From a virus (lineage: Duplodnaviria; Caudoviricetes), in IMG/VR virus record IMGVR_UViG_3300027744_000020, positions 1 through 61,390 of that record: DNA of 61,390 nucleotides, one strand, 5' to 3'. Below are positions 32,072 to 59,306 of this stretch, piece after piece. A program made the position numbers and the translations under genes. Position 1 is the first letter of the stretch; each line of letters begins with the position of its first letter. The notes under the pieces are model-generated. The model was not told the origin of the DNA. It saw only the letters and a list, made by a program, of their open reading frames with translations, and made no database searches.

Positions 32072-32096
32072 AAGCCCGCCATGTGCGGGCTTTTTT
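32072..32096 (+). terminator. Rho-independent terminator
   Basis: GCCCGC-CAUGU-GCGGGC followed by U6, preceded by a GGGGC-GAAA-GCCCC hairpin at 32041-32058. Confidence 0.85.
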
Positions 32097-32157
32097 GCGT
32101 CTGTTACATTTTCCCCAAGGGCTAACAATTTGTTAGCCCTTTGTCGTTTTCGGCTTT

Positions 32158-36602: not shown

Positions 36603-36829
36603 TGAACATCACGGACATAACGAAAATCGATTACGACAAATTGGTTGCGCATTCGGGCAGACCCTACTTTGTGCAGTGGATAACCGCGACCAATCAGCAT
36701 CACGAAATAGTTGTGTTGGGTTGGTGCGTGAAGGAGGCTAAGACATGGCAAACCATGTTCAAGCACGAGGACAGGACTGTGTGTATGAAGGTATGTGAAA
36801 TGTTAAACGAAGGGGTAACAAAATGTTAG
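36602..36829 (+). CDS. Hypothetical protein
   Basis: GGAGG SD, TAATG overlap. Confidence 0.65.
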   Translation: MNITDITKIDYDKLVAHSGRPYFVQWITATNQHHEIVVLGWCVKEAKTWQTMFKHEDRTVCMKVCEMLNEGVTKC

Positions 36830-42250: not shown

Positions 42251-42434
42251 AAAACGAAAGGGACGAGGCCCGAGTAAGAAGCCGACCCTCTTCAATACGA
42301 GCTTGCGATTACCAAAGCATGTGATGGATTACTTCAACACCCACTATCCGTATTCAAAGCAAGCCAAGATTCGTGAAGTTTTAACCGAGTATGTAAACAG
42401 CCAACAGCAAGGAGCTAACAATGGCAACAGCTAA
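42237..42434 (+). CDS. BrnA-like ribbon-helix-helix DNA-binding protein
   Basis: RGP.KKP....TSLRL...V.DYF.......QAKIREVL. Confidence 0.6.
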   Translation: MEEIKKRKGRGPSKKPTLFNTSLRLPKHVMDYFNTHYPYSKQAKIREVLTEYVNSQQQGANNGNS

Positions 42435-42900: not shown

Positions 42901-42923
42901 AGCCACCTTCGGGTGGCTTTTTT
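42901..42923 (+). terminator. Rho-independent terminator ending the early operon
   Basis: AGCCACC-UUCG-GGUGGCU followed by a U-tract. Confidence 0.9.
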
Positions 42924-42932
42924 ACGTCTGTG

Positions 42933-42961
42933 CTTGACATTGTCTAGCAATGTGTTATTAT
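42933..42961 (+). promoter_or_regulatory. Replication-module promoter 1 with palindrome on the -35
   Basis: TTGACA-16 bp-TATTAT, extended -10 TG, CTTGACA-T-TGTCTAG. Confidence 0.7.
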
Positions 42962-42990: not shown

Positions 42991-43287
42991 GTGGCGGCAA
43001 CCCCCGAGGCCAAGGTCAAGGCCAAGATTAAAAAAATCCTGAAAGACAACGGTGTCTACTACGCCATGCCCATCGGCACTGGTTACGGCAACTCAGGAGT
43101 CCCCGATTTTCTATGCTGTGTCAACGGAAACTTCCTTGCTGTTGAAGCCAAGGCAGGCAAAGGCACGACCACGGCACTGCAAGAAAAAAACCTTCGAGAG
43201 ATAAAACAATGCGGTGGCACAGCCGCCGTAATTGCCGAAGAGCAACTCGAATACTTAGAGCAACTTATCCAACTGATGAAACAATGA
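42991..43287 (+). CDS. VRR-NUC / Holliday-junction resolvase-like nuclease
   Basis: PE.KVK...GVPD...G.F.AVE.K...T.LQ...GG. Confidence 0.85.
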   Translation: MAATPEAKVKAKIKKILKDNGVYYAMPIGTGYGNSGVPDFLCCVNGNFLAVEAKAGKGTTTALQEKNLREIKQCGGTAAVIAEEQLEYLEQLIQLMKQ

Positions 43288-43298
43288 AGGAGCTAACA

Positions 43299-43745
43299 AT
43301 GACTGAATTATCCGCAGGTGTACGTGCGCTGGTAGGGCGAATGGAGTCCAATCCCAGTGAGTTTTATGGTAGTGCTGACAAATGGCACTTCATGTTCGCC
43401 GCTAATTTCCGTGAGGTGTTGACTGAGCCTGAGAAGGGTGCACTGCACGAAGCGCTGAAAGAAGTACGGCGCAAAGAATTCGACGAGAAGGTCATGCGTG
43501 AGTTGTTGAAGGACAACATGGAAGAACAACTAAAAGGCGCTCCTTACTTTACCGGTGCGCAAATAGGTAGCAATAGTGGGTTTGGTCAAGCGCAAATAAA
43601 GGCAGAGGGCTCTCGTCTTGGGTACACCCTTGCACAGCTACAAGATACGTATAGCCCAAACATACGACTTGGCGAACAAACCCTTAGCGAAGAAGATGTA
43701 AAGCAAATGAAGGCGGCAACCACATCCTCGAATCTTTTCAGATGA
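43299..43745 (+). CDS. Hypothetical protein coupled to DNA polymerase
   Basis: GAAGGAGCTAACA RBS before ATG 43299, ATGA overlap with the polymerase gene. Confidence 0.7.
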   Translation: MTELSAGVRALVGRMESNPSEFYGSADKWHFMFAANFREVLTEPEKGALHEALKEVRRKEFDEKVMRELLKDNMEEQLKGAPYFTGAQIGSNSGFGQAQIKAEGSRLGYTLAQLQDTYSPNIRLGEQTLSEEDVKQMKAATTSSNLFR

Positions 43746-45681: not shown

Positions 45682-46340
45682 GTATCGTATGGTCGTTCAG
45701 TAGCTTAAAAACATTTGAGCAATGCCCAAAGAAGTACTATCACACCAAGATAGCCAAGGATGTTGTTGAGCCTGACACAACGGCAACGCTGTACGGCAAG
45801 ACTGCTCATACTGTGGCAGAGGAATACATCCGTGACGGTAAGCCAATCCCGCCAGCGTTTGAGTACATGAAGGACACGCTGGATGCCCTCAAGAATTTAG
45901 AGGGGGAGAAGCTGTGCGAGGTAAAGCTAGGCTTGACCAAAGACCTAGAGGCTTGTGAGTTCCATGCCCCGAACGTATGGTGGCACGGTATTGCCGACTT
46001 GGTTGTATTGAACGAAGAAAAGGGTTTGGCGCATTCCGCCGACTACAAAACCAGCAAGAGTGCACGGTACGCAGACACCAAACAACTCGACCTTGTGGCG
46101 GCTGGTCTTTTTGCCAAGTTCCCCAAAATCAATCGAGTGAAGTCAGCCTTGATCTTTACGGTAAGCAAGGAGTTTGTGAAAGCCGAGCACCACAGAGAAA
46201 TGATGCAAAAGTACCTAGAAAAGCCAGCGATGGGTGTTGCACGGATTGAGGCGGCGTTAGAAAATGGAGTGTGGAATCCTATCAGTGGGCCGCTGTGCAA
46301 GTTCTGCGCGGTCAAACAATGTGAATACAACCGGAGCTAA
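45678..46340 (+). CDS. PD-(D/E)XK exonuclease (Cas4/AddB-like)
   Basis: WSFS.L..F..CP, GIAD, DYKT, C-terminal CKFC...C. Confidence 0.88.
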   Translation: MSIVWSFSSLKTFEQCPKKYYHTKIAKDVVEPDTTATLYGKTAHTVAEEYIRDGKPIPPAFEYMKDTLDALKNLEGEKLCEVKLGLTKDLEACEFHAPNVWWHGIADLVVLNEEKGLAHSADYKTSKSARYADTKQLDLVAAGLFAKFPKINRVKSALIFTVSKEFVKAEHHREMMQKYLEKPAMGVARIEAALENGVWNPISGPLCKFCAVKQCEYNRS

Positions 46341-46342
46341 AA

Positions 46343-46657
46343 ATGAAATTTGATTCAACTAATTACGTAACCAATGAATGGCAAAGCTACTACGGCGCTG
46401 TACGTGCTGTGGTGGATGAAGAAGGAAACGGTAACAGCGAAATCACAGTGTTGGAATTTGAAACACCTTCAGGTTTTTCGCAGTTGATGGAGGTTACGCT
46501 ATTGACAGGTGACAGCCCACAAGACGAAACCGTTGTTACGTTAGAAGATGTACACACAGTGCGCATAAAAATAACAGGCGAATGGGAAGGCAGTGAAATT
46601 ATGTATGGTTTAGCCGACTTAATACACGCTTTGAAACTCAAAGCAACACTTGAATGA
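46343..46657 (+). CDS. Hypothetical acidic protein
   Basis: GGAGCTAA RBS, 104 aa. Confidence 0.65.
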   Translation: MKFDSTNYVTNEWQSYYGAVRAVVDEEGNGNSEITVLEFETPSGFSQLMEVTLLTGDSPQDETVVTLEDVHTVRIKITGEWEGSEIMYGLADLIHALKLKATLE

Positions 46658-46953: not shown

Positions 46954-48338
46954 ACTTATCAGAGTATGAGTGGCCTCGTCCCCACGGGTTCACACCGTTC
47001 GATCATCAGAAGACTACAGCCGAGTTCCTAACGACCAACAACAAAGCGTTCTGCTTTAACGAGCAGGGGACAGGCAAGACAGCATCAGTGATTTGGGCAG
47101 TTGATTATTTGATGCAACGAGGATTAGTGAAGCGAGTGTTAGTGATTTGCCCCTTGTCAATCATGAAGTCGGCATGGCAACAGGACTTGTTTAAGTTCGC
47201 AATCCATCGCACGGTGTCAGTTGCACACGGCGCGGCTAAGAAGCGCAAAGAGATCATCAATGCGGGGTCAGAGTTTGTCATCATTAATTTTGATGGGGTT
47301 GGAATTGTTAAGAGTGAACTGCTCAAGGGCGGGTTCGATTTGATTGTGGTAGATGAAGCGTCAGCGTATAAGAATGCGCAGACAGAGCGGTGGAAAGACT
47401 TGCGAGACCTAACCAAAGTCATACGTGGGTTGTGGATGTTGACTGGAACTCCCGCCGCGCAGTCTCCTGTGGATGCTTACGGATTAGCAAAGTTAGTGAA
47501 CCCCACTGGCATCCCCCTGTTCTTTGGGCAATTTAGAGATCAAGTAATGCTCAAGGTCAGTGACTACCGCTGGATACCACGCCCCGAGTCCAAACACATT
47601 GTTCACAAGATACTCCAACCAGCTATACGGTTTGAGAAGAAGCAGTGCCTTGACCTACCCCCTGTAACCTTTGTTGACCGTGATGCACCGCTGTCACCCC
47701 AACAGATCAAGTATTACAACGTACTCAAGAAGCAGATGTTGATTGAGGCCGACGGAGAAGAAATATCGGCAGTCAATGCCGCCGTGAAACTCAACAAGCT
47801 ACTTCAAATATCCGGGGGCGCTGTGTATACGGATACTGGAGAAGTCCTAGAGTTTGATGTATCTGGCAGATTAAATGTGGTGCAGGAAGTCATTGAGGAA
47901 TCAAGCCAAAAAGTGCTGGTGTTTGTACCCTTTACCCACACCATTGAGCTTCTAGAAAAGCACTTAAAAAAGCACAATATAAAGTGCGAAATTATCAATG
48001 GAGAGGTGAGTGTCAATAGACGTTCTGAATTGGTGCGGCGGTTTCAAGAGAACGAGCACCCCAAGGTTCTTATCATCCAACCACAAGCAGCATCCCACGG
48101 GCTTACCCTAACTGCCGCCGACACAATTATTTGGTACGCTCCGTGCTCAAGTGTAGAAACATACCTACAAGCCAATGCCCGAATTGACCGACCCGGTCAA
48201 GTTAACCCGATGACAGTCGTGCATATAACAGGCAGTCCGATAGAGACAAAGATGTACGCCCACTTGCGGGGCAACATTGCACACCACACAAAAATAATTG
48301 ATTTATACAGGCAAGAAATTATTTTAGAAAGTACTTGA
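46950..48338 (+). CDS. SNF2-family helicase
   Basis: QGTGKT, VVDEA, LTGTP, HGLTL, QA.ARI.R.GQ. Confidence 0.92.
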   Translation: MNLSEYEWPRPHGFTPFDHQKTTAEFLTTNNKAFCFNEQGTGKTASVIWAVDYLMQRGLVKRVLVICPLSIMKSAWQQDLFKFAIHRTVSVAHGAAKKRKEIINAGSEFVIINFDGVGIVKSELLKGGFDLIVVDEASAYKNAQTERWKDLRDLTKVIRGLWMLTGTPAAQSPVDAYGLAKLVNPTGIPLFFGQFRDQVMLKVSDYRWIPRPESKHIVHKILQPAIRFEKKQCLDLPPVTFVDRDAPLSPQQIKYYNVLKKQMLIEADGEEISAVNAAVKLNKLLQISGGAVYTDTGEVLEFDVSGRLNVVQEVIEESSQKVLVFVPFTHTIELLEKHLKKHNIKCEIINGEVSVNRRSELVRRFQENEHPKVLIIQPQAASHGLTLTAADTIIWYAPCSSVETYLQANARIDRPGQVNPMTVVHITGSPIETKMYAHLRGNIAHHTKIIDLYRQEIILEST

Positions 48339-48362
48339 CATTGTCAAGGTCTGTGATAAACT
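48334..48362 (+). promoter_or_regulatory. Replication-module promoter 2 with palindrome on the -35
   Basis: Perfect CTTGACA-T-TGTCAAG, TTGACA-16 bp-TAAACT with extended -10 TG. Confidence 0.7.
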
Positions 48363-48390
48363 GACCCCCCCGAAACAACTGGAGCTAACT

Positions 48391-48825
48391 ATGGACGCAT
48401 TAGAAGTTCAGGACGAAGTCACCACTCCTTCTGTCCCCCTAGACAAACTGACCGCTATCTACATCAAGATGCGCGACGCCAAAGATACCCTCACTTCCAA
48501 GTATAAAGCCGAGTACGCCGACATCGAAGAGCAGATGGCGTTGCTTGAATCGGAGATGCTTGCGATCTGTAAAAACATGAATGCCGACAGCATTCGCACA
48601 AAAGCTGGCACGATTGTTCGTTCCGTAAAGTCACGGTACTGGACGAATGATTGGGATTCTATGTACGACTTCATTGAGGAGACCGGTGCATATGGCCTGC
48701 TGGAGAAGAGACTTCATCAAACAAACATGAAAGATTTTCTTCTTGAGAATCCTGACCTTCTGCCGAAAGGCTTGAATGTCGAAAATCAATATACCGTGGT
48801 AGTTAGACGTTCTAAGGAAAACTGA
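48391..48825 (+). CDS. Conserved replication-module protein
   Basis: GGAGCTAACT RBS, coiled coil followed by S.RT..GT......Y...DW. Confidence 0.75.
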   Translation: MDALEVQDEVTTPSVPLDKLTAIYIKMRDAKDTLTSKYKAEYADIEEQMALLESEMLAICKNMNADSIRTKAGTIVRSVKSRYWTNDWDSMYDFIEETGAYGLLEKRLHQTNMKDFLLENPDLLPKGLNVENQYTVVVRRSKEN

Positions 48826-49997: not shown

Positions 49998-52850
49998 ATG
50001 TCCACATTTGATTTGCTAGATGCCGTGTTACCCACGGAGGGGCGGTACTGCATAGTTGGCATAGGTAAATATGTTGACCAGCGTTTTGCAAACACAAGGG
50101 AAGAAGCCGAGACACTCATCCAAGAGTTCAACACCAAGCAAGTCAACGTGTATTTTGGCTGTGCCAAATTTGGTACAGCAGACGACAGGACGCACGACAA
50201 CGTAGCCTTTGTTCAAGCCTTATGGCTGGATATTGATTGCGGCCCGACCAAGGGTGTACCGAATTCCAAAGGGAAGATCGAGGGCTATCTCGACCAGCAG
50301 ACAGGGCTGGAAGAGCTTAAGAAGTTTTGTAAGACAGTCGGCTTACCTAGACCAATTTTGGTGAATTCCGGCAACGGTGTTCATGCTTACTGGTTGCTTG
50401 AAGAGATGTTATCCCGCACGGTGTGGGAGCCATTAGCCAAGCGGCTAAAACAACTTTGCAAAGAACATGACTTGATCGTTGACGACAAGGTGTTTGAAGC
50501 ATCGCGGGTTCTTCGTGTGCCCGGTTCAATGAATGTAAAAAAAGGGTTAGAGGCCAAAGACGTAGTCGTGTGGAACGGGGTTTCGCCGAGGCTGTCTATT
50601 GAGAAGCTGCGTGAATTGTTGGGCGCACCCGAGCCGAAACAAGAAGAAGTGCCGGACTTTATACCCTCTGCCATGAGTCCCATGATGGAAGCATTGTTGG
50701 GTAATAAGGTCAAGCGGTTTAAGACCATCATGCTCAAGGCCGAGAACGGCTGTGCGCAACTGAATTACGTGTTTCAAAACCAAGCTGAGATTGATGAGCC
50801 ACTGTGGATGTCGGCGTTGTCTATCCCTGCTTTCTGTGTAGACGGAGACAAGGCGGCGCACAAGATGTCCGACCAGCATCCCGAGTACGACCCTGCCGAG
50901 GTAGAGAACAAGCTTAGGAATATACGCAAGCGCGGTGGCCCACACCACTGCACGACATTTGAAGAACGCAACCCCGGTGGTTGTGATGGTTGTGTACACA
51001 AAGGCAAGATCACTTCACCTATTGTGTTGGGTATAGAGATAGCAGAGGCAACCGAGGCCGACAACGAAGTGGAGGTTGAAACCGAAGCAGGTGTTGAGAC
51101 GCACCAAATACCTGAGTATCCGTTTCCGTTTTTCAGAGGTAAAAAGGGTGGTATATATGTTCGTCCCCCCAAAGATTCCGAAGAAGACCCCGTAATGGTG
51201 TACGAGCATGACTTGTATGTACTCAAGCGTATGCGGGACAAAGAGTTAGGTGAGATAGCGTTGTTCAGACTTCACTTACCCCATGACGGGGTGAAAGAGT
51301 TTGCGATAACCACTGCGGCTATTTCATCAAAGGACGAGCTACGTAAACAGCTTGCCCAACAGGGAGTAATGGCGCACCACAAGCAATATGAAAATCTTGC
51401 AACGTACGTTGTTACAGCAGTTAAAAATTTGCAATACATGAAGAAAGCAGAGCTTATGAGAACACAATTTGGATGGGTTGAAGGCGACAGTAAATTTATT
51501 ATGGGTAACAAAGAGATTACCAAGGACGGTACGTTCTACAGCCCATCATCGTCAACAACAGAGTTTTTTGCCGAGAAGGTTCACGAAAAAGGTGACATAG
51601 ATAAGTGGAAGGAAGTCTTCAACCTGTACGCACTCAAGGGTATGGAGCCTCACGCTTTTGGAGCCTTAACTGCGTTTGGCGCTCCACTAATGAAGTTCAC
51701 TGGGTTAAAGGGTTCAATCATTAACGTGATTTACGAATACGCCGGATCAGGGAAATCAACCATTCTGCGCATGTGTAACAGTGTGTATGGTATGCCTTAC
51801 GAACTTATGTCAATTGAGAAGGACACGCTCAACGCCAAGATGCAACAGCTTGGGGTAATGAACAACATCCCCAACACGATTGACGAAATCACTAACATGT
51901 CCCCCAAGGAGTTTTCTGATTTGGCATACGGCATCAGTCATGGCCGAGGCAAGAACCGTCAAAAGGGTTCAGAGAACGCACTGCGCATCAACAACACTTC
52001 ATGGCAGAACATGACTTTGTGCTCGTCTAACGCCAGCTTTTACGAGAAGTTGACCGCATTGAAGAATAGCCCAGATGGTGAATCCGTACGGTTACTTGAG
52101 TACAAGATAGAACCCAATGACTTGATTGGTGTAGCTAGGGGCAAAGAAATGTTTGACCACCAACTCAACGAGAACTATGGTCATGCGGGGGAGATATACC
52201 TTACATGGCTGGTAAACAATTTAGAGTACACCAAGGATTTGATAAAGAAAGTGCAAGCCCGACTGGATAAAGAAGTTCAGTTCACCTCACGGGAACGCTA
52301 TTGGTCTGCCACCGCCGCTTGTAACATTGCCGGTGGTTTAATTTCTCGTCACCTTGGCTTACATGATTTTGATATGACCGCTGTGTACGACTGGCTAAAG
52401 GGCATGTTGGGTGAAATGCGCCACGATATAAAGCCCCCACAGTCAACTCCCGTTGCCACCCTCGGTGAATTTCTTGATAGCCACCACATCAATGCTTTGG
52501 TGGTTAACGGTGAAGTAGATGCCCGGAGTAGTATGTCGGCGTTACCTTTGCAAGAACCTCGTGGGGAGTTGCTGGTACGTTACGAGCCGGATACTAAACA
52601 CATCTACGTAGCAGCCAAACAGTTCAAAGAATTCTGTATCAAGCAGCAGGTCAATTACAAAACCCTGCTCAAAGAGTTAACCGACTTGAAAATCTTTGTT
52701 GAGACGGTCAATAAGCGTATGTCCAAGGGTATGAAGGTTGCTTCCCCTGCTGTGCGTACGTTGAAGTTTGACGCATCGAATTCCGAGTTCCTGCGCATGG
52801 ATGATATGTTGGGGCTAAATGAAAATCGAGACCGTGTCGTATCAGATTGA
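49998..52850 (+). CDS. Primase-helicase (RepB/AEP-like primase + DUF927 ATPase)
   Basis: WLDID, SGNGVHAYW, RVLRVPG, Cys cluster, Walker A GSGKST, IDEIT. Confidence 0.88.
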   Translation: MSTFDLLDAVLPTEGRYCIVGIGKYVDQRFANTREEAETLIQEFNTKQVNVYFGCAKFGTADDRTHDNVAFVQALWLDIDCGPTKGVPNSKGKIEGYLDQQTGLEELKKFCKTVGLPRPILVNSGNGVHAYWLLEEMLSRTVWEPLAKRLKQLCKEHDLIVDDKVFEASRVLRVPGSMNVKKGLEAKDVVVWNGVSPRLSIEKLRELLGAPEPKQEEVPDFIPSAMSPMMEALLGNKVKRFKTIMLKAENGCAQLNYVFQNQAEIDEPLWMSALSIPAFCVDGDKAAHKMSDQHPEYDPAEVENKLRNIRKRGGPHHCTTFEERNPGGCDGCVHKGKITSPIVLGIEIAEATEADNEVEVETEAGVETHQIPEYPFPFFRGKKGGIYVRPPKDSEEDPVMVYEHDLYVLKRMRDKELGEIALFRLHLPHDGVKEFAITTAAISSKDELRKQLAQQGVMAHHKQYENLATYVVTAVKNLQYMKKAELMRTQFGWVEGDSKFIMGNKEITKDGTFYSPSSSTTEFFAEKVHEKGDIDKWKEVFNLYALKGMEPHAFGALTAFGAPLMKFTGLKGSIINVIYEYAGSGKSTILRMCNSVYGMPYELMSIEKDTLNAKMQQLGVMNNIPNTIDEITNMSPKEFSDLAYGISHGRGKNRQKGSENALRINNTSWQNMTLCSSNASFYEKLTALKNSPDGESVRLLEYKIEPNDLIGVARGKEMFDHQLNENYGHAGEIYLTWLVNNLEYTKDLIKKVQARLDKEVQFTSRERYWSATAACNIAGGLISRHLGLHDFDMTAVYDWLKGMLGEMRHDIKPPQSTPVATLGEFLDSHHINALVVNGEVDARSSMSALPLQEPRGELLVRYEPDTKHIYVAAKQFKEFCIKQQVNYKTLLKELTDLKIFVETVNKRMSKGMKVASPAVRTLKFDASNSEFLRMDDMLGLNENRDRVVSD

Positions 52851-53013
52851 TTGGTCAAAGTTTAGAGCCGGTCATTCATTTTTTGTACCCTGCATAGACC
52901 ACAATGCGGCACGGGAAACTGTAGCCGCTGTTACAAAAAGGTTGAAGATACCTATTGTTACAAAGGTTGTAATCGTGGAGGGTATAAAAGGTTTGCGAGT
53001 TTGGCGCGTTTAA
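52819..53013 (+). CDS. Small conserved protein ending the replication operon
   Basis: W..F..G.SFF.PC...G..GLRVWR. Confidence 0.7.
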   Translation: MKIETVSYQIDWSKFRAGHSFFVPCIDHNAARETVAAVTKRLKIPIVTKVVIVEGIKGLRVWRV

Positions 53014-53027
53014 TGTAGACTAATATC

Positions 53028-53105
53028 AATGGTAAGCAGTTGCCATTTGGAAGAGTTAGCTCCTTCCAGCCTCCCCTTCCCCCCGCCTATGTGCGGGGGT
53101 TTTTT
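53028..53105 (+). ncRNA. Candidate trans-acting small RNA
   Basis: Possible promoter TTGCGA(52993)-17 bp-TAGACT(53016). Two hairpins plus a terminator. Seed is complementary to the RBS of genes at 42421, 43299, 46343 and 48391. Confidence 0.6.
53080..53105 (+). terminator. Rho-independent terminator at the convergence of the two arms
   Basis: CCCCCGC-CUAUGU-GCGGGGG followed by U6. Confidence 0.9.
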
Positions 53106-56100
53106 ATTGGGCCATCAAACGCTCACGCTCTAGTTTCTTTTCCGACGGTTCCAGCAATTCAATTAATTGCGGATAGTACTTTTTGTCAATAGGCATACCA
53201 CGGTCGGATTTAATCTTGCGTTCCATTTGCTTTTTAATTGATTGCTTAATGTTGTCACCACCAATCATGTCGTAGGGGTTTCTGCTATTAAACTTAAATA
53301 TTTTGTCAAAGGCTTTTTCAATGTCTTCATCCGAACCTTTGTCCAACTCCCGCTCCAACCGGTCAAGTAAGCTGGTGCGTTCGCGTTTTACTTTTAAGAT
53401 TTCACCTTGCAATTGGAAGATTGCTTCCCGCCGAGCCACAAGTCCTTCAGTAGCGAAACCCATAGACTGAGCCAACAACTGCCCCTGAGTAAATTCCTCG
53501 GCTTCCTTGATAACCGCGCCTGATGTAGTAGTTGCTCCTTCTTGTGAATACCGATAAGCAGTAAGTGAACCGCGCACAAAAGCCGGGGATAACTGCTCGA
53601 TACCCTTCAAAATTTCCCCTCGGTTCAGCGTGTCAATGGCGTTAGGGATTTGTTTAAACATGATAGATGCGCTAGGGCCGAGCAAAGACATAAAGTATTC
53701 CTGCATAGCCGCAGCAGAAGTGGCCTGCTCTTTTACATCCGGCACCCACATGTTGTTCATGGACAAGCTACCGGAAATGTCGTAGCCAGTCATAGTGGCA
53801 ATCAAGCCTCTGTCTAAGACTTCATCCAATGTGTGATCTCCAATCTTAATGTTGCCAAAAGTTTGCGGTAGCCATATGTTGCGGAACCAAAACTCTAAGT
53901 CGCGGCCTTCTAATGGGTCGTCCTCGTCGTCCCCACGCATTGCATTCATCATGCCCTGAATTGCGCCCATAGCCATTGTTGCGCCGGGAATACCAACGTA
54001 ACCAGCAAGCGCGGTAGACATAGTCAACGTGCCAACCAACTGGGTCATAGCTTTAGCGCGATCTTGTGCATCAAGCCCCGCCAGCGCACGGTAAGCGTTA
54101 CGTATAAAGAACGTAGTTACAAACGTGGGGAACATCTTGAACTGAAGAATTGTGCGGCCTATAGGTTTTTGAGCGTCAAGTACAACTTCGCGTTCAGCGT
54201 TAGCCAGCAACCCGCGAGGGCGGTTAGATGCGTGATAGTTGCCCAAAGCTTCGTGGGTCTCGGCTTCGGCTGCACGTAAGGCTTCTTCGTGAGTGTACTT
54301 CTTGCCGGTTTCTTTGTTGATCTCTTTAGAATACATATCGTAGGAAGTCATAAAAGTCACTTCACGAATCATGCGCTCAGAGTGATGGAATAAGCTAGTC
54401 ATTACATTGCTGGCACTGCGAATAGTACGCAACGTAGTACCTTCAAGTTTGCTAGTCGGCGTATCTCGGCGGTTACCAAGATCGTAGGCCAACGTGTTGT
54501 CGCTGATGCCTCTGTCTGCCATGTACTGCGCAGCCAACTTTTGATCCTCAGTCAACTTAATCAAGCCGTTGTTTAGGTAGGAGGGGAACTCAAACGTGGT
54601 TGAGCCGTCTTTAGCTTGCCGACGAATACCGCTTGTGCCAAAAATAGCCATTGACTTAGCAAGAGCCTTACCAACTTTGATGGGATTAAACCCGTGATTG
54701 GATGTAAGCACTGGGCCAACAAATATTGGAAGCGCCGTTAACTGAGTAGCGGCGGTCTTGATCGAAGTCATCAACCACAAGTAGGCCGAGGAGTTCAACA
54801 GCGCAGAAGTTTTATAGCCTAAGCTGTCTTCCGAATCAGGGCGAACTTGCTGTTCGGCACGCATACGCATCTCAGAAACAAATTCACCGAGGCGTTCTTT
54901 GTCGGGGTTTCCTTCAAGCGTGTCGTTTGCACGTTCAAGCTCGTTCATGATGCGGGGGCCATATTTAATACGCGCCAATTGATTAGCCATGTTTGTGCCG
55001 GTCACCGCAAAGTTACGAGCAATGTCACCGCTAAAACCGGTAGTGCCTTGACGATGCATGTACTGTCTGCGGAAATTGCGGTCAGGCAAAGTCTGCAAAT
55101 ACATTTGATAGATTTCGTCTTTGAGCTTCTCGGCATCAATGCTGGTCATAGCAGAAACCGTATTACCAAAATCATCAATGACTTCTTTGCCAGCTTTTAC
55201 ACCCGCATCAATAGAGTTAAAGATTTCTTTTAACATACCGCTGGCATCTAAGTCCCGCTTACGCGCATCAGACAAATCGTTGCCTATGTCGATAACTTTA
55301 GATTCCTGCATCTCACGCAAGGATTCAGTGAAACCAGCCTCTTGCATTTGACGGACGCGTTTACGTAAAAACATGTTGCGATCAAAAGCGTTCTCAAACA
55401 TGTAGAATTCGCGGTTCACGCCCTTACCAATGCGCAACCAGTATTGGCCGTAACGCATCAATGGGAAGTACGGGTACAGCTTTTTGCCATCTTCGTATAT
55501 TTGTTTAATCTGAGCAATCAGTTTACCTTTGGGGGACTTGCCGTCTCCAGCGGTGCCAGCCAACTTTGAATTAGCAATCTGCTCTTCCAGCAACACATGA
55601 TATTGCTCGTGGTTGGCTTTATAAAAATCTCGGACTTGCTCATACAACTTTTTATTTGCGTCGGTCAAGCCATCCCACAACTTTTTCAAGTCGGCATCTT
55701 TAGTTAAATTGCCAGCTACAGTTGGGTCACGGTACAGCAACGTGGAGTAGTGCATCACATTAGCAAGACGCCGTAGTTGCTCGGGTGCGTTACGTGCCAA
55801 CTTTGCTAAGGATTCGGAGACGGGCACCATGTCCGCCGTAGCTTTATTACGCATAGCCGCCATATCACCGAGGTTTTGCCAAGACTCTTTAATACCTTTA
55901 ACGCCGAGGCGGTCGGCCCATTGAACTACGGCCTCTGTTTGCAACATAGGCAGTACTTGGCGCAGCTTAAAATTATCAAACCCAGCGTACATAGAAGACA
56001 GCGCGTCGGTTAAATCCTGCATACTGCGCAAGTTAACAAGCAGAGGCAAGTCTCGGATTATGTCGGCAAAGCTAGACGTTTCTATACGCTGAAGAATCTT

Positions 56101-59100
56101 GTTGGTCTTTGCTTTCTTCTCTTTAATAGCCGACGATATTTCTGCAAGGTTACCGCTACGCTTTTCTAAAGCTTCCTGTGCACGCATTAAAGGTGTCTTG
56201 CGTGCGGTCAACATGCTGTCGGTAATATTTACAATATCTGACAGTGCGCTGGTATGAGTTGCGTCCATGTTAAAAAACTGACGCACGTTGTTGATAAACC
56301 GAGTGAACAACGATTGTTTGAGATGCCCAGCAGTTTTCATCAAGAACTTTTGGAAGTCAGGGTCAGACATTGCGTAGGCAATAAACTCTCGTGGGTCTCC
56401 AAAGATATTGGCGGAAATTAAGTCTTCCATGAACTCAGGCAATGTGCCTGCTTCACGCATCTCGTTGACCCGGTCGGCGGTCAAGTTTATTGTTTTAATT
56501 AGGGCGTTGTACGCCACCGCCAAATCAGACTTGCGGTCAAATCCAGTTTGAAGCGCGTCAAGCGCCAAGTCCATTTTCTTGTTAAGCGCGGCGTGCAACA
56601 TCTCGTGCAGCACAGTGACGTTGTTAATACCTTGGCTTGGGCCTCCAGTCCTACCGCGCACAAACACAAATTTTTCGCCGGTAGCCACGATACGTAAGAA
56701 CAAACCACGAGACGCATCCCAATCGGCTTCTGCCCCACCTTCAGTGATTTGACTCGGCAGAACATCATCTTCTTCAATTACTTTGAAGTTGACATCTTTT
56801 ACAAAGGGTAACAAGCGTTGAGCCAAAAATCTTTGAAACGCATTACCGGTCTTGATAACATGACGCAAGGCTTGCTGACCATTTGTCATGTTGTTAAATC
56901 TAGTATCGGCTCGGCCAACTTTTACCTGCGTGTTAGCTTTAGATACTTGAGCAGCAATACCTTTTTGTACGTTCTCCAACTCCATTTTAGTAATGGCGGG
57001 ATTCTTTAATAGCTCGGCTGCTCGGTCACCCGGCTTAGTGCCTTTAAGGGAACGTGACAACAGTATCAAAGATTTGATAGCTTGGATTTTGCCAACACGT
57101 TTTGTTGTTTCGGCGGCGACTAAGTTTTCGTCCGAAGTAATTTTATCTTCGTCAATAGGAGCAAGGGCTTCATTAAGAGCGGCTTCAGCAGCAGCTACAG
57201 CTTTTTCATTTTCTTTGTAGTTTGCTGTTTGTTGTTTGCGGCGTTCATCGCTGGCGGCTTTTTTCTCGGGGGTTAAAGGTTTGCGGCCAACTTTACCCTT
57301 AGTTGTTTCTACTGTCTCTTCTTCAGCAGGCAGAGTTGTTATATCGCCGACGGCGTCTGCAATTTCGTTAGGTATCTCAGCTTCTTCAGCAATTACATCG
57401 TCTGACTTAGCAGCAGACTCAGTGGGGGCGGTTTCTTGAGTGGGGATTTCTTGGATTCTTTGCTTGCTTATTTCCTCGTCGTATGCCGCAACTGCTTTAT
57501 CAATTGTTGGCTGGTCGTTTATCCCCTGCTCACGCATAGAGTCTGGAAGGTTATCTCTGTACGCACCAATTGATTCTTCTAAAGATCCAAAGCTACCTTG
57601 GTCGGCTATTGCGCTATCTACGGAGCGTTTAGCAAATACAACGGGGTCTACTGCAATGGGCTGAGCAGAAAGCGTTTCTGTCTGAGCGGCTTGTTTAAAC
57701 GGGTCAACTATTGCAACGGGCTGTACCGTTTCTCCCGCCACAGTTCCTGTAACATCCGGTCTAGTAGAAACCACTCCACTTGGCTCAGCGATTCCAGTTC
57801 CTCCGGCGGTGGTATCTGTACTGGGCTGTCCAACCATTGGAACGCTTGCTCCACTTGTGCCGGGGATAGTCTGTCCAACATCTGGTTCTCCTTGAGTTGC
57901 CGCACGTTGTTGTATCTCCGTTTGTACCGCTTCGATGAGGGGTTGGTTTTGTTTGGCTTCAGGCTTAGCCAGTTGAAGTTCCAACGTAGCGGTCAGGTTT
58001 GTATCTGTCCAAGTATTGACGGGCGGGATGTATGGGATAGGGGCTTCGGTTGCCGCAGGGGTTTCAACGGCTGCTTCAGCGGGAGTGGGGGCTGGTGTTT
58101 GCTCGCCAACTTGATCTTTAGCTTGGTCTTCAACTTCTTTGGTAGCCGCTTCAATTGCACGATATTGCGCACTACCGGGATCAAGCCCCATGTCTTGGAA
58201 AGTTTGTTGAAATTGCGCTACGCGCTCAGGGTCAATATTAGTAATGCCTTGCTGGGTCAAATCAGCGGCAACTTTTTCAATTTCCAGTGGAGGCCGCTTA
58301 GGAGTTGCTGGTTCTTGGGTAGGCGCAGCTTCTGCTGCTCGACGGGCTTCCAAACCTTCACTCGCACCAGCAGCAGCGCCAAGTCCAGCACCTGCCAGAC
58401 CTTCCATAGTGCCCTGCCCCACAACACCGCGCATAGTGGGTACGTCGTAGCCTTCACGTTGAAGAGCTATATTTTGAGCTAATTGTTCTTGACCGCCTTG
58501 CGCAGCTTCACCTACAAATTCTTTAGCCCCTGTAACAGCCGCTTGTTTTTTGACACTATTTGTAATGATTTGCTTAGCTACTTGACGAGCTATTGCTGGC
58601 TCAAAACCCGTACTTGCGCCGATTGCGCCGAGAGCCGACCCCATCAAAATCTGATCTAAGTTTTCACCGTTGTAGTCTTGCGCAGCTTGCGCACGCGCTT
58701 CAATTTGTTCCTTGGGCATATTAGTCTTGCCAAGCTCTTCTTTGACCGCATCGTAGATAGTACCTTTAATCGTACCGGCACCCATAATAGAACCAACCCC
58801 AGCGCCAACAGCAGTAGCCGCAAGAGCACCTGCACCAAAAACAGAAGCACCTAAACCAGCCACGATAGCGGGGGCAGATGTGCCCAATGCGTTTACTAAT
58901 GTATCAATAGGGGCAATAGTGAAAGCTTTGATACCAGCTTTAACTTGATCTAAAACACCTTTGTCCTCGGCGTCTTTCATAATCCGAGAAATCTCAGCGG
59001 AATCCTTTTTAGACTGCGCACTATATAACTCACCAATATAATCTTCTACACCCTTAATAGATTTGGATACGTCGCTACCCGCACCAAAAGCGTCAGCAAC

Positions 59101-59295
59101 TAAACGCACACCAGTAGCCAAACCAGAAACCGCCTTTAAAGGTACGTCGGCAACGCTACGTAGGATTGATTGATCTTCAGGTTTTGGTTGTGGGGCAAAC
59201 GGGTCAACGATTTGCGGAGCAGGCTGCGCCTCAAAGGGGTCAACGATACCCCTCCGTTGCGGTTGTTGTGCCTCAAACGGATCAATAATGGCCAT
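53104..59295 (-). CDS. Large ejection / polyvalent protein with zincin-like motif
   Basis: 2063 aa. Gly/Ala-rich N-terminus, LHEMLH...EFIA, YFPL.R.G.Y, helical C-terminal region. Last gene of the virion module. Confidence 0.75.
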   Translation of the reverse strand: MAIIDPFEAQQPQRRGIVDPFEAQPAPQIVDPFAPQPKPEDQSILRSVADVPLKAVSGLATGVRLVADAFGAGSDVSKSIKGVEDYIGELYSAQSKKDSAEISRIMKDAEDKGVLDQVKAGIKAFTIAPIDTLVNALGTSAPAIVAGLGASVFGAGALAATAVGAGVGSIMGAGTIKGTIYDAVKEELGKTNMPKEQIEARAQAAQDYNGENLDQILMGSALGAIGASTGFEPAIARQVAKQIITNSVKKQAAVTGAKEFVGEAAQGGQEQLAQNIALQREGYDVPTMRGVVGQGTMEGLAGAGLGAAAGASEGLEARRAAEAAPTQEPATPKRPPLEIEKVAADLTQQGITNIDPERVAQFQQTFQDMGLDPGSAQYRAIEAATKEVEDQAKDQVGEQTPAPTPAEAAVETPAATEAPIPYIPPVNTWTDTNLTATLELQLAKPEAKQNQPLIEAVQTEIQQRAATQGEPDVGQTIPGTSGASVPMVGQPSTDTTAGGTGIAEPSGVVSTRPDVTGTVAGETVQPVAIVDPFKQAAQTETLSAQPIAVDPVVFAKRSVDSAIADQGSFGSLEESIGAYRDNLPDSMREQGINDQPTIDKAVAAYDEEISKQRIQEIPTQETAPTESAAKSDDVIAEEAEIPNEIADAVGDITTLPAEEETVETTKGKVGRKPLTPEKKAASDERRKQQTANYKENEKAVAAAEAALNEALAPIDEDKITSDENLVAAETTKRVGKIQAIKSLILLSRSLKGTKPGDRAAELLKNPAITKMELENVQKGIAAQVSKANTQVKVGRADTRFNNMTNGQQALRHVIKTGNAFQRFLAQRLLPFVKDVNFKVIEEDDVLPSQITEGGAEADWDASRGLFLRIVATGEKFVFVRGRTGGPSQGINNVTVLHEMLHAALNKKMDLALDALQTGFDRKSDLAVAYNALIKTINLTADRVNEMREAGTLPEFMEDLISANIFGDPREFIAYAMSDPDFQKFLMKTAGHLKQSLFTRFINNVRQFFNMDATHTSALSDIVNITDSMLTARKTPLMRAQEALEKRSGNLAEISSAIKEKKAKTNKILQRIETSSFADIIRDLPLLVNLRSMQDLTDALSSMYAGFDNFKLRQVLPMLQTEAVVQWADRLGVKGIKESWQNLGDMAAMRNKATADMVPVSESLAKLARNAPEQLRRLANVMHYSTLLYRDPTVAGNLTKDADLKKLWDGLTDANKKLYEQVRDFYKANHEQYHVLLEEQIANSKLAGTAGDGKSPKGKLIAQIKQIYEDGKKLYPYFPLMRYGQYWLRIGKGVNREFYMFENAFDRNMFLRKRVRQMQEAGFTESLREMQESKVIDIGNDLSDARKRDLDASGMLKEIFNSIDAGVKAGKEVIDDFGNTVSAMTSIDAEKLKDEIYQMYLQTLPDRNFRRQYMHRQGTTGFSGDIARNFAVTGTNMANQLARIKYGPRIMNELERANDTLEGNPDKERLGEFVSEMRMRAEQQVRPDSEDSLGYKTSALLNSSAYLWLMTSIKTAATQLTALPIFVGPVLTSNHGFNPIKVGKALAKSMAIFGTSGIRRQAKDGSTTFEFPSYLNNGLIKLTEDQKLAAQYMADRGISDNTLAYDLGNRRDTPTSKLEGTTLRTIRSASNVMTSLFHHSERMIREVTFMTSYDMYSKEINKETGKKYTHEEALRAAEAETHEALGNYHASNRPRGLLANAEREVVLDAQKPIGRTILQFKMFPTFVTTFFIRNAYRALAGLDAQDRAKAMTQLVGTLTMSTALAGYVGIPGATMAMGAIQGMMNAMRGDDEDDPLEGRDLEFWFRNIWLPQTFGNIKIGDHTLDEVLDRGLIATMTGYDISGSLSMNNMWVPDVKEQATSAAAMQEYFMSLLGPSASIMFKQIPNAIDTLNRGEILKGIEQLSPAFVRGSLTAYRYSQEGATTTSGAVIKEAEEFTQGQLLAQSMGFATEGLVARREAIFQLQGEILKVKRERTSLLDRLERELDKGSDEDIEKAFDKIFKFNSRNPYDMIGGDNIKQSIKKQMERKIKSDRGMPIDKKYYPQLIELLEPSEKKLERERLMAQ
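57708..57881 (-). CDS. Putative overprinted 57-aa gene nested in the large ejection gene
   Basis: AAGGAG SD 6 nt before ATG 57881, amphipathic helical product, overlaps a low-complexity linker of the host ORF. Confidence 0.5.
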   Translation of the reverse strand: MLDRLSPAQVEQAFQWLDSPVQIPPPEELESLSQVEWFLLDRMLQELWREKRYSPLQ

Positions 59296-59306
59296 GCCGA
59301 ACCCCT

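What the first reader, a model, noticed from the sequence alone, without database searches (positions are those of the whole stretch)
53028..53105. Candidate phage trans-acting sRNA with a matching private RBS code in four middle/replication genes
Seen: the gap after the replication operon folds into hairpin 1 (AAUGGUAA-GCAG-UUGCCAUU), hairpin 2 (UGGAAG-AGUUAGCUC-CUUCCA), a C-rich linker and a terminator, with a possible TTGCGA-17-TAGACT promoter. The segment AGUUAGCUCCUUC (53054-53066) is complementary to an unusual RBS used repeatedly: GAAGGAGCTAAC at 43286 (12 nt, gene coupled to polA), AAGGAGCTAAC at 42409 (11 nt), GGAGCTAACT at 48381 (10 nt, first gene of the SSB/primase operon) and GGAGCTAA at 46333 (8 nt). 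For gene 42421 pairing is bipartite: AGCAGUUGCCAUU also covers AAUGGCAACAGCU across the start codon with one mismatch. The same GUUGCCAU could pair with ATGGCAAC starts of the portal, scaffold, adaptor 17409 and 5373 genes (weaker evidence). Known: P1 C4 and P4 CI RNAs act in trans through two short seeds. Inference: an RNA made at the end of the replication operon feeds back to shut down translation of a defined regulon. I do not recognise it as a described family.
Basis: partly seen in the sequence, partly recalled or inferred. Interest (0 to 1): 0.9.

Follow-up and report, generated by a model that had tools for sequence, protein, structure and literature searches.

The report
Phage small RNA mirroring ribosome sites
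At the end of its DNA-replication genes this uncultured lake phage, like all its relatives examined, encodes a short folded RNA whose exposed loop is the mirror image of an unusual ribosome-binding tag on several replication genes, and loop and tag have changed together in related phages, so the RNA very probably pairs with those messages to control their translation, though nobody has yet seen it act.

Summary
The two hairpins, C-rich linker, terminator and the 8-12 nt complementarities lie exactly where stated.

The element is conserved after a 64-aa ORF in 84 of 92 related loci. Five misses are contig ends and three are regex failures on elements that are present. A -10-like box TAnAnT is kept in 62 of 63 distinct sequences. 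The hairpin stems covary.

Decisive evidence: the loop and the RBS tag change together.
- GUUAGCUCC with GGAGCUAAC (window clade).
- GUUAGUUCC with GGAACUAA, at four start regions of one genome.
- GUUUGCUCC with GGAGCAAAC.
- GUUCGCUCC with GGAGCGAA.

Own pairs beat permuted pairs (p 0.0009-0.02).

Not supported: the ATGGCAAC/hairpin-1 idea and target 46343. About 5 of 13 clades show only Shine-Dalgarno-core pairing with the 48391 homologue. No transcript ends, strand or repression are shown; RNA libraries hold only contigs.

There is no Rfam match. The closest published analogue is P1/P7 c4 RNA.

Earlier AI notes of this scan describe similar anti-RBS hairpin RNAs in other uncultured phages; I did not test them.

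The parts
52819..53013 (+). 64-aa ORF (overlaps the end of the primase/helicase gene 49998-52850); its last codons carry the -35-like hexamer of the RNA gene
   Evidence: ORF list. Protein conserved at 64-80% identity in 10 of 10 fetched genomes. No Pfam or PHROG family.
52993..52998 (+). -35-like hexamer TTGCGA, inside the Leu-Arg codons of the 64-aa ORF
   Evidence: Read. In relatives it is (T/C)TGCGN, always 17 nt from the -10 box. It is weak (3-4 of 6) and constrained by coding.
53016..53021 (+). -10-like box TAGACT (family consensus TAnAcT), 2 nt after the stop codon
   Evidence: T, A, A, T at offsets +5, +6, +8, +10 after the stop in 62 of 63 distinct sequences. Neighbouring positions vary, with 0.32-0.51 maximum frequency. 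The same type of -10 (TAAACT/TAGACT/TATAAT) serves the consensus promoter of the 48391 operon.
53028..53047 (+). Hairpin 1 with loop GCAG and 3' arm UUGCCAUU; the motif GCAGUUG(C/U)C recurs in several clades; role unexplained
   Evidence: Folds. Motif seen in L028, L031, L076, L078, L081, L101, L118, L122 and L126. Absent in L013, L020, L036 and other clades.
53048..53068 (+). Hairpin 2, which presents the anti-RBS seed AGUUAGCUCCUUC (53054-53066) in its loop and 3' arm
   Evidence: Folds. Stem variants are GGAAG/CUUCC, GAAAG/CUUUC, GGAUG/CAUCC and GCAAG/CUUGC. 4 of 5 stem pairs have changes on both sides.
53069..53079 (+). Single-stranded C/U-rich linker (GCCUCCCCUUC), a second generic anti-Shine-Dalgarno stretch; counterpart of the CUCUCCUUG core of distant clades
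   Evidence: Unpaired in the MFE. CUCC(U/C)CUU-type stretch before the terminator in nearly all clades. L055 lacks it.
53080..53105 (+). Rho-independent terminator (7 G-C pairs, loop of 6, U6). It also ends the transcripts of the replication operons. The stop codon of the convergent 2063-aa gene (53104-53106, - strand) overlaps the T-run.
   Evidence: Terminator scans. Stem covaries, CG to GC at column pair 130/146 in 22 of 54 rows. ORF list.
42409..42432 (+). Start region of gene 42421 (152 aa, DUF3310 / nucleotide-kinase-like): tag AAGGAGCUAAC, then AAUGGCAACAGCU
   Evidence: 11-nt plus 9-nt exact complements. Rank 1 of 82 by cofold ddG, -13.1. Tag conserved in L082-L093 and L119. Homologue in G006 has CAAGGAGCAAACA, 13 nt matched to that phage's changed seed. 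Homologue in G001 has AAGGAACUAAC.
43286..43301 (+). Start region of gene 43299 (148 aa, no family), just before the DNA polymerase gene: tag GAAGGAGCUAAC overlapping the stop of the gene before
   Evidence: 12-nt complement. Rank 3 of 82. Tag conserved even where the gene behind it is only 28% identical (L093/L094). G001 homologue has AAAGGAACUAA.
48381..48393 (+). Start region of gene 48391 (144 aa, weak Mu Gam/Gp157-like), first gene after the consensus promoter at 48335: tag GGAGCUAACU
   Evidence: 10-nt complement. Rank 21 of 82 in the window, but rank 4 or better in 7 of 11 genomes. Tag state follows seed state in 44 of 48 loci that carry one of seed states 1-3; the other 4 are G.U or bulge variants.
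46333..46345 (+). Start region of gene 46343 (104 aa): GGAGCUAA, 8 nt; weak candidate
   Evidence: Homologues have GGAGTTAAAG, GGAGTTGAT or GGAGTTAGCC. Not supported as a conserved target.
36805..36825 (+). Start region of the 404-aa DUF2201 gene (36823). In the window it matches only the linker (GAAGGGG). In G002 and G003 it carries GGGAGCUAAC.
   Evidence: Pfam. Ortholog table: mean z -1.62 over 9 genomes, the best of all groups..

Best explanation
This is a small regulatory RNA gene of about 78 nt (53028-53105, + strand) at the 3' end of the replication arm.

How the RNA is made (inferred):
- From its own weak sigma-70-type promoter, TTGCGA-17-TAGACT.
- And/or as the shared 3' end of the two replication operons, which stop at the same terminator.

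How it acts:
- Hairpin 2 displays AGUUAGCUCCUUC.
- That stretch base-pairs with the Shine-Dalgarno-plus-spacer tag (A)AGGAGCUAAC of a small set of early/replication messages: 42421, 43299 and 48391, and in relatives also the DUF2201 gene.
- Pairing covers the ribosome-binding site and so lowers translation initiation. This would work as a negative feedback or a timed shut-off of the replication module.
- A second, unpaired CCUCCCCUU stretch is a generic anti-Shine-Dalgarno site.

Shown:
- The anatomy.
- Conservation of the -10 box, hairpins and terminator.
- Compensatory change in the stems.
- Concerted change of seed and tags across lineages.

Inferred:
- That the RNA accumulates as a discrete species.
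- That pairing represses rather than activates.
- The timing.
For: 1. Conservation.
- The element follows the 64-aa ORF in 84 of 92 loci with that ORF. Five misses are contig ends. Three are elements that are present but missed by my regex: interrupted T-run in L065 and L071, box shifted by 1 nt in L141.
- A covariance model finds one copy per locus at that place, in 749,776 nt searched. Only 2 weak extra hits appear among 55.

2. Promoter-like box. TAnAnT is kept in 62 of 63 distinct sequences in non-coding DNA, while flanks vary. It sits 17 nt from (T/C)TGCGN.

3. RNA structure (alignment fitted to the model).
- 98% of cells are paired, against 85.6% in shuffles.
- 7 of 12 pairs have changes on both sides.
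- 0 of 500 shuffles reach any of the five measures.
- Slid controls give 42-70% paired.

4. Seed and tag states.
- 39 loci have GUUAGCUCC with GGAGCUAAC; 3 have GUUAGUUCC with GGAACUAA; 2 have GUUUGCUCC with GGAGCAAAC.
- 4 loci have GUUUGCUCC with G.U or bulge variants; 24 have neither.
- No locus has a seed of one state with the tag of another (72 loci).
- In the second sampling, all 10 distinct RNAs with GUUAGUUCC have GGAACU.. at the 48391 homologue, 9-16 nt.
- A fourth state appears there: GUUCGCUCC with CAAGGAGCGAA, 11 nt, in L223.

5. Several genes change at once.
- In G001, GGAACUAA stands at 4 start regions of the early arm, of 5 copies in the genome. Three of them are homologues of 42421, 43299 and 48391.
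- The window has GGAGCUAA at 4 start regions and no GGAACUAA anywhere.
- In G006 the 42421 homologue has a 13-nt match to the changed seed.

6. Statistics.
- Own RNA against own 48391 start region versus permuted pairs: p 0.0016 with 17 hand-picked representatives.
- With 13 automatically clustered representatives: p 0.023 for duplex energy and p 0.00085 for cofold ddG.
- Shuffles with fixed cores, start regions with a complement of 10 nt or more: window 3 against 0.19 (4 of 2000); G001 5 against 0.17 (0 of 2000); G003 3 against 0.28 (0.004).

7. Specificity. G001 tags are bound well only by the G001 RNA: -11.4 against -2.1 to -5.9 kcal/mol.

8. Ortholog-level ranking in 11 genomes puts 36823, 48391 and 42421 on top, with mean z -1.62, -1.59 and -1.53.

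9. All tags lie on the early/replication arm and at Shine-Dalgarno distance from ATG.
Against: - No transcript evidence. The four RNA libraries hold the region only as assembled contigs: 52856-53076 in X1 and 53069-53220 in X5. These show neither ends, strand nor level, and may be DNA carry-over.
- The promoter is weak (8 of 12) and was not called by the scan.
- The - strand folds as well as the + strand.
- My accessibility-weighted scoring put none of the four named targets in the top 14 of the 65 of 82 start regions that received a score. In the window, hairpin 2 closes to a 4-nt loop.
- By cofold, 48391 is rank 21 of 82.
- In 5 of 13 automatically chosen clades the own 48391 start region ranks 8th or worse.
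- Clades L044-L061 share only the 5-nt Shine-Dalgarno core.
- In the distant clade L229-L233 the seed is kept, but the 48391 tag matches 11, 8, about 5 and about 5 nt.
- L221 has no match. L055 has lost the anti-SD stretch.
- Phylogenetically independent contrasts are few. There are 2 of 2, 1 of 1 and partly 2 concordant pairs, too few for a sign test.
- Gene starts come from a crude gene caller of my own.
Confidence: 0.6

Rival explanations
1. There is no separate small RNA. The anti-tag works only in cis, as the 3' UTR of the long replication-operon messages. It pairs with the tags of 48391 (about 25 nt from the 5' end of the same transcript) and 43299. This closes the message end to end, either to tune translation of the first gene or to protect the ends from nucleases.
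For: - Between 35000 and 54500, the only convincing + strand terminators are 42901-42918 and 53080-53099.
- Transcripts from the consensus promoters at 42934 and 48335 should therefore carry both tag and anti-tag.
- The most widely matched target (48391) is the first gene of that operon.
- The RNA's own promoter is weak.
- An RNA-library contig runs from the 64-aa ORF into the RNA without a break (52856-53076).
Against: - The -10 box is conserved in 62 of 63 sequences directly after the stop codon and has no use in this model.
- Gene 42421 and the DUF2201 gene lie in the operon before the terminator at 42901, so they can only be reached in trans.
- The short RNA has the classic build of a trans-acting sRNA: seed, then terminator hairpin and U-tail.
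Confidence: 0.18
2. The RNA is real but is aimed at host messages. It would be a general or host-specific anti-Shine-Dalgarno sRNA, and the matches to phage start regions are secondary.
For: - The family-wide invariant is only CUCC(U)-type sequence, next to a terminator with a U-tail. That is the usual build of host-type Hfq sRNAs.
- In 5 of 13 clades no extended match to the 48391 start region exists.
- Published phage sRNAs such as lambda PreS act on host genes (abstract read).
Against: - The concerted change of seed and of up to four phage tags is not explained by a host target.
- The host is unknown, so nothing could be tested. The closest cultured phage has only 29% primase identity.
Confidence: 0.08
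3. The shared 9-12 bp word is a double-stranded DNA site for a phage DNA-binding protein. It is used in one orientation at gene starts and in the other in the convergence gap. No RNA pairing is involved.
For: - A DNA site is read on both strands, so an inverted copy and concerted change of all copies with the protein's specificity would be expected.
Against: - The word always sits at Shine-Dalgarno distance from ATG, including at a start inside an operon that overlaps the preceding stop codon.
- The copy in the gap sits in a hairpin whose stem shows compensatory changes.
- The matched words differ completely between clades: GGAGCUAAC, GGAGCAAACA, GGAGAAGCA, GAGAAACA, ACCAAGGA.
- G.U-compatible intermediates occur (L132, L064, L068, L032). 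These make sense only for RNA.
Confidence: 0.05
4. It is only a terminator with stabilising hairpins. The complementarity is a leftover of an inverted duplication of a start region and has no present function.
For: - The - strand of the element reads like the 42421 start region with a 7-nt insert: tag, then ATGGCAACNGCT.
- The window's 1-mismatch count of the word is at chance.
Against: - A functionless relic would not keep the seed invariant over lineages whose primase is only 50-75% identical.
- Nor would it change in step with the tags.
- Nor would it keep a -10 box.
Confidence: 0.05

Closest known systems
c4 antisense RNA of phages P1 and P7 (Rfam RF01695)
   Same: - A short phage RNA that presents, in hairpin loops, sequences complementary to the ribosome-binding region of phage messages and blocks their translation.
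- Loop and target differ together between related phages (P1 against P7 heteroimmunity).
- Basis: passages of review PMC12197685 read; the P1/P7 compensatory detail is recalled.
   Different: - No sequence or structure match: RF01695 is absent even at E up to 10.
- c4 is cut out of the leader of the operon it controls and governs an antirepressor in lysogeny (recalled).
- Here the RNA lies at the 3' end of the replication arm of a phage with no lysogeny genes noticed. It has its own -10 box.
- It matches three to five replication/early genes in two or three operons.
Trans-acting bacterial sRNAs with C/U-rich anti-Shine-Dalgarno seeds (RsaE/RoxS, LhrC, CcsR 'cuckoo' RNAs)
   Same: Exposed C/U-rich stretches in loops or linkers pair with Shine-Dalgarno sequences of several messages. 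Build is a terminator hairpin plus U-tail. These names came from earlier notes of this scan and from recall; I did not read those papers.
   Different: - Those are chromosomal, and their seeds match the generic SD.
- Here the seed reaches 5-8 nt into the spacer, giving a private address that only a few phage genes carry.
- No Rfam family of this kind scored near its threshold: best 18.6 bits against a gathering score of 56.4.
T4 RegB endoribonuclease and RegA translational repressor
   Same: - Post-transcriptional shut-off of early/replication genes through their start regions.
- RegB cuts GGAG in early Shine-Dalgarno sites.
- RegA, encoded in the replication gene cluster, represses many early and middle messages.
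- Basis: passages of review PMC3014915.
   Different: Those are proteins. Here the proposed effector is an RNA, and recognition is by base pairing.
Published trans-acting phage sRNAs (lambda PreS/LPR1; VP882 VpdS)
   Same: Phage-encoded base-pairing sRNAs active in the lytic cycle. Basis: PreS abstract and outline read; VpdS seen only as a reference title.
   Different: PreS acts on host genes (dnaN) and activates. The present RNA's best matches are the phage's own replication-module start regions.
3'-UTR-derived sRNAs of enterobacteria (CpxQ, SroC type; recalled, no call)
   Same: The sRNA shares the terminator of an upstream operon. It can arise by processing or from an internal promoter inside the last gene.
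   Different: Here the targets include genes of the same operon, and the element is phage-borne.

Membership tests
C4 antisense RNA (Rfam RF01695) | Match to the family covariance model | tested here: not met
   No hit at gathering score in the whole window. Not among the 18 hits at E up to 10 in 52950-53150.
C4 antisense RNA (Rfam RF01695) | Loops complementary to the ribosome-binding region of phage target messages | tested here: met
   The hairpin 2 loop and 3' arm are complementary to 10-12 nt at three start regions. This is likeness of mechanism, not membership.
C4 antisense RNA (Rfam RF01695) | Encoded in, and processed from, the leader of the operon it controls (recalled feature) | tested here: not met
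   The element lies at the 3' end of the arm, after the last ORF and before the terminator. Processing itself is not testable here.
Rho-independent, Hfq-type trans-acting sRNA (general class) | Own transcription start | tested here: inconclusive
   The -10 box is conserved in 62 of 63 sequences with 17-nt spacing to a weak -35. It scores only 8 of 12 and was not called by the scan. No reads show a 5' end.
Rho-independent, Hfq-type trans-acting sRNA (general class) | G+C-rich terminator hairpin followed by a U-run of 5 or more | tested here: met
   53080-53105. Present in all 63 distinct elements listed (sequences).
Rho-independent, Hfq-type trans-acting sRNA (general class) | Conserved seed with compensatory change in targets | tested here: met
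   Four seed/tag states. Permutation p 0.00085-0.023.
Rho-independent, Hfq-type trans-acting sRNA (general class) | Discrete stable transcript; chaperone binding | not testable with these tools
   Only assembled contigs of RNA libraries were on hand. The host is unknown.
Any Rfam family (release 15) | Score at or above the gathering threshold | tested here: not met
   0 hits in 61,390 nt. The best sub-threshold hit is 18.6 bits against a threshold of 56.4, and it rests on the terminator.

The most novel reading that the evidence does not exclude
The seed/tag pairs are lineage-specific addresses. Each phage lineage keeps a private RNA code that lets one small RNA throttle its whole replication module.

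Related phages that co-infect one cell would then cross-silence each other's replication genes, or escape silencing, according to their code. This would be RNA-based heteroimmunity or competition among lytic phages.

The swap matrix hints at such asymmetry. Window-type RNAs do not bind G001 tags, while the G001 RNA still binds window-type tags through G.U pairs.
Probability: 0.12. Interest if true: 0.85.

Novelty: new variant of a known kind. Interest (0 to 1): 0.68.

Why it matters
If the RNA works as inferred, a large lineage of uncultured freshwater phages controls its replication genes with one evolvable small RNA and a private extension of the Shine-Dalgarno sequence. The lineage has 287 primase relatives in IMG/VR.

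That would add an RNA counterpart to the protein shut-off systems of T4 (RegA, RegB). It would also show that c4-like loop-to-RBS control is not confined to lysogeny switches.

The system comes with a natural set of compensatory variants, four seed/tag states. These make the pairing directly testable in reporters without designing any mutant.

Together with similar, unchecked notes from other phage lineages in this scan, it suggests that anti-RBS RNAs may be a common and overlooked layer of phage gene timing.

In two full-text searches and one review I found no description of this family, or of a phage sRNA with a private RBS tag on replication genes. Supplementary tables of those papers were not seen. 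One example is the review's list of 38 phage sRNAs without known function.

Tried and rejected
- A minus-strand mini-ORF. The - strand reads RBS-like GGAAGGAGCTAAC, then 13 nt, then ATG GCA ACT GCT TAC CAT TGA. In other clades no start codon follows AAGGAG on that strand (sequences), so no conserved ORF. Rejected.
- Sliding-window RNAduplex over the whole genome. It timed out and was replaced by exact-complement scanning.
- RNAduplex ranking of full-length RNA against start regions. It gave long unrealistic duplexes and false gene starts on top. Not used.
- My own accessibility-weighted score. Only 65 of 82 start regions got a score, and none of the four named targets was in the top 14. It favoured the single-stranded linker. 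I keep this as a result against easy access to the window's seed. The method was crude: it listed suboptimal duplexes only within 14 kcal of an unrealistic optimum.
- RNA libraries. Four freshwater metatranscriptome runs hold parts of 52300-53700 at 99% or more, but only as contigs. They say nothing on ends, strand or level.
- Phage database. There is no DNA match. The best protein relative is Pseudomonas phage Rollin, at 29% over the primase. It has no intergenic gap at the corresponding place, so no cultured model was found.
- Independent-contrast sign test. Too few contrasts to reach significance.
The tag contains TAAC, but the covarying positions (GGAGC to GGAAC, CUAAC to CAAAC or CGAA) lie partly outside it, and no second half-site follows. 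Not pursued further.
- The weak covariance-model hit at window 32015-32097 is a two-hairpin terminator without a CUCC seed. It is not a second copy.
Full report
WHERE IT LIES. The window is a whole IMG/VR virus record of 61,390 bp, estimated 96% complete.

The ORF map shows three blocks:
- Structural/late genes on the - strand, 6-31171.
- An early/replication arm on the + strand, 31450-53013.
- More - strand genes, 53104-61390.

The finding sits in the 90-nt gap where the two arms converge. On one side is a 64-aa ORF (52819-53013) that overlaps the end of a 950-aa primase/helicase. On the other is a convergent 2063-aa gene whose stop codon overlaps the terminator's T-run.

No DNA relative exists among 50,697 phage records. 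The nearest cultured phage, Pseudomonas phage Rollin, shares 29% over the primase and has no gap at this place.

THE OBSERVATION.
- Hairpin 1 (53028-47), hairpin 2 (53048-68), C-rich linker and terminator (53080-53105).
- TTGCGA-17-TAGACT upstream.
- Exact complements of the loop region at 43286 (12 nt), 42409 (11 nt, with a further 9 nt across the start codon), 48381 (10 nt) and 46333 (8 nt), each just before an ATG.

Three cautions apply:
- The - strand folds as well as the + strand.
- The promoter scores 8 of 12 and was not called by the scan.
- The 9-mer's count with one mismatch allowed is at chance.

The exact 9-mer, however, occurs only four times: three start regions and the inverted copy in the loop. 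Shuffling the RNA around fixed CTCC/TTCC cores reached three start regions with 10 nt or more in only 4 of 2000 trials.

CONSERVATION. Three anchored searches of IMG/VR gave 207 loci:
- The window's primase: 287 relatives, 80 kept.
- The window's polymerase: 595 relatives, 80 kept.
- The primase of L122: 48 relatives, 47 loci.

In the first two sets, 92 sequences (the window included) hold the 64-aa ORF. In 84 of these my pattern found the element. Five misses are contig ends and three are elements that the pattern missed.

The common plan has four parts:
- Stop codon, two bases, TAnAnT.
- About 6-8 bases, then 25-65 variable bases that nearly always hold an unpaired or loop-exposed CUCC(U) stretch.
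- Often a small hairpin.
- A strong terminator with a U-run.

Aligned by the stop codon without any pattern, T, A, A, T stand at +5, +6, +8 and +10 in 62 of 63 distinct sequences. Neighbours vary. The box lies 17 nt from (T/C)TGCGN in the Leu-Arg codons.

The same kind of -10 (TAAACT, TAGACT, TATAAT) belongs to a consensus TTGACA-16-TGn promoter in front of gene 48391, conserved in all clades.

A covariance model of hairpin 2 plus terminator finds one copy per locus at this place. On its alignment, 98% of cells pair and 7 of 12 pairs have double changes. None of 500 shuffles reaches the observed values, and slid controls fall to 42-70%. That alignment is fitted to the model.

Hairpin 2 has the stems GGAAG/CUUCC, GAAAG/CUUUC, GGAUG/CAUCC and GCAAG/CUUGC around an almost invariant loop.

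SEED AND TAG CHANGE TOGETHER. For 72 loci with both the RNA and the homologue of gene 48391:

| Seed in the RNA | Tag at the 48391 homologue | Loci |
|---|---|---|
| GUUAGCUCC | GGAGCUAAC | 39 |
| GUUAGUUCC | GGAACUAA | 3 |
| GUUUGCUCC | GGAGCAAAC | 2 |
| GUUUGCUCC | variants that still pair through G.U or a one-base bulge | 4 |
| neither | neither | 24 |

No locus combines the seed of one state with the tag of another.

The third search enlarged the second state. All 10 distinct RNAs with GUUAGUUCC have GGAACU.. with 9-16 nt of exact complement. It also added a fourth state: L223, loop UUCGCUC, tag CAAGGAGCGAA, 11 nt.

Other clades show their own matches:
- UGCUUCUCC with GGAGAAGCA.
- UGUUUCUC with GAGAAACA.
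- AUUCUCCU with AGGAGAAU.
- UCCUUGGU with ACCAAGGA.

Several genes move at once:
- In the complete genome G001, GGAACUAA marks four start regions of the early arm, of five copies in the genome. Three are homologues of 42421, 43299 and 48391.
- The window has GGAGCUAA at four start regions and GGAACUAA nowhere.
- In G006 the 42421 homologue reads CAAGGAGCAAACA, a 13-nt complement of that phage's UGUUUGCUCCUUG.
- Intermediates that pair through G.U occur: L132, L064, L068, L032. This is the pattern expected of RNA helices.

STATISTICS AND THEIR LIMITS.
- Own RNA against own 48391 start region beats permuted pairs. With 17 representatives that I chose after seeing the data, p is 0.0016.
- With 13 representatives chosen by automatic clustering, p is 0.023 (duplex energy) and 0.00085 (cofold ddG).
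- The result is bimodal. The own start region ranks in the top 3 in 8 of 13 clades and 8th or worse in 5 of 13.
- On a primase tree the seed state changes at least 5 times and the tag state 6 times. Independent contrasts are few: 2 of 2 and 1 of 1 concordant, and the third state only partly. A sign test cannot be significant.
- The distant clade L229-L233 keeps GUUAGCUCCUU in a larger loop. Its 48391 tag matches 11, 8 and twice only about 5 nt.
- L221 has no match, and L055 has lost the anti-SD stretch.
- So the 48391 tag is a frequent target, not a universal one.

WHICH GENES.
- By cofold ddG, which charges for opening the RNA's own hairpins, the window's 42421 is rank 1 of 82 start regions, 43299 is rank 3 and 48391 is rank 21.
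- In G001, G003, G004, G006, G007 and G010 the 48391 homologue is rank 1 or 2.
- Across 11 genomes the most consistent ortholog groups are the 404-aa DUF2201 gene (36823), 48391 and 42421. Gene starts there come from a crude caller.
- 46343 is not supported: its RBS is not conserved.
- The ATGGCAAC idea is not supported. Such starts number 10, 4, 4 and 4 in genomes whose RNA lacks hairpin 1, against 6, 5 and 7 in genomes that have it.
- What the conserved GCAGUUG(C/U)C of hairpin 1 does is unexplained.

HOW IT MOST LIKELY WORKS. The + strand between 35000 and 54500 has only two convincing terminators, at 42901 and 53080. Strong promoters stand at 35208, 42934 and 48335.

Messages from 42934 and 48335 therefore end with the anti-tag. 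In addition, the conserved -10 box can give a short RNA of about 78 nt.

Either way, the loop and 3' arm of hairpin 2 can cover the Shine-Dalgarno site and spacer of the tagged genes and keep 30S subunits off. Gene 42421 and the DUF2201 gene lie in the operon before the terminator at 42901, so they can only be reached in trans.

I favour a trans-acting repressor (0.6). A purely cis 3'-UTR role is the main rival (0.18).

A DNA-site reading is unlikely. The word sits at SD distance. The gap copy lies in a covarying hairpin. The words differ wholly between clades. G.U intermediates exist.

The stop codon of the late 2063-aa gene abuts the hairpin, with no U-run on that strand. Late transcripts may therefore run antisense through the RNA gene. 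This is inference only.

EXPRESSION. Four freshwater metatranscriptome runs hold parts of the region at 99% or more, but only as contigs. One spans 52856-53076 and one spans 53069-53220. They prove neither transcription, strand nor ends.

COMPARISON.
- No Rfam family matches.
- The closest published system is the c4 RNA of P1/P7, with loops complementary to the ribosome-binding region (review passages). It differs in place, in processing and in what it controls.
- T4 RegB and RegA do a comparable job with proteins.
- Published lytic-cycle phage sRNAs such as lambda PreS act on host genes.
- Two full-text searches found no description of this family. Supplements were not seen.
- Earlier AI notes of this scan report similar anti-RBS hairpin RNAs in other uncultured phages. 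I did not test them, and they are not independent support.

VERDICT.
- The feature is real, conserved and structured.
- Seed/tag covariation makes functional RNA pairing probable.
- It is a new variant of a known kind.
- Transcript and effect remain to be shown.

Noticed in passing
window 48333-48362 and 42932-42961: The two consensus promoters of the replication operons (TTGACA-16-TGn-TAAACT/TATTAT) carry a palindrome over the -35, CTTGACAnTGTCAAG at 48334-48348. It is conserved in G001-G004. It looks like an operator for a repressor of the replication operons.
   Followed up: partly
window 53100-53106: The stop codon (TAA, - strand) of the 2063-aa late gene overlaps the T-run of the terminator. 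On the - strand the hairpin is followed by GAAGGGG, not by a U-run. Late transcripts may therefore read through, antisense to the small RNA and to the replication genes.
   Followed up: no
window 32035-32097: After the first early gene (31450-32037) come two hairpins: GAGGGGC-GAAA-GCCCCTTC and a terminator GCCCGCCATGTGCGGGC-T6. The terminator loop resembles that of the small RNA's terminator. It gave a weak covariance-model hit (28 bits) but has no CUCC seed.
   Followed up: partly
window 53036-53045 and relatives (L028, L076, L078, L081, L101, L118, L122, L126): The motif GCAGUUG(C/U)C in the loop and 3' arm of hairpin 1 is kept across distant clades while the stem covaries. No conserved partner was found. 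In G006 one start region (CAAGGAGCAACTGCAATG) matches both this loop and the seed.
   Followed up: partly
window gene starts at 5373, 17409, 19675, 25583, 28690 (- strand) and 42421 (+): Six genes begin ATGGCAAC (Met-Ala-Thr/Asn). The same excess is seen in relatives (3-10 per complete genome) whatever the RNA looks like. It is probably a translation or N-terminal preference, not an RNA target.
   Followed up: yes
L093/L094 compared with window 43286-43745: At the position of gene 43299 these relatives carry a gene only 28% identical, but with the same GAAGGAGCTAACG tag. The tag seems to stay with the slot while the gene behind it is exchanged.
   Followed up: no
L055:7008-7068: One relative has a shortened element (25-nt body) that keeps the hairpin-1 motif and the terminator but lacks any CUCC stretch. 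It is a natural loss-of-seed variant.
   Followed up: no
window 53028-53066, - strand: Read on the - strand, the element looks like the 42421 start region (tag, ATGGCAACNGCT) with a 7-nt insert. This suggests the RNA arose by inverted duplication of a target start region.
   Followed up: no
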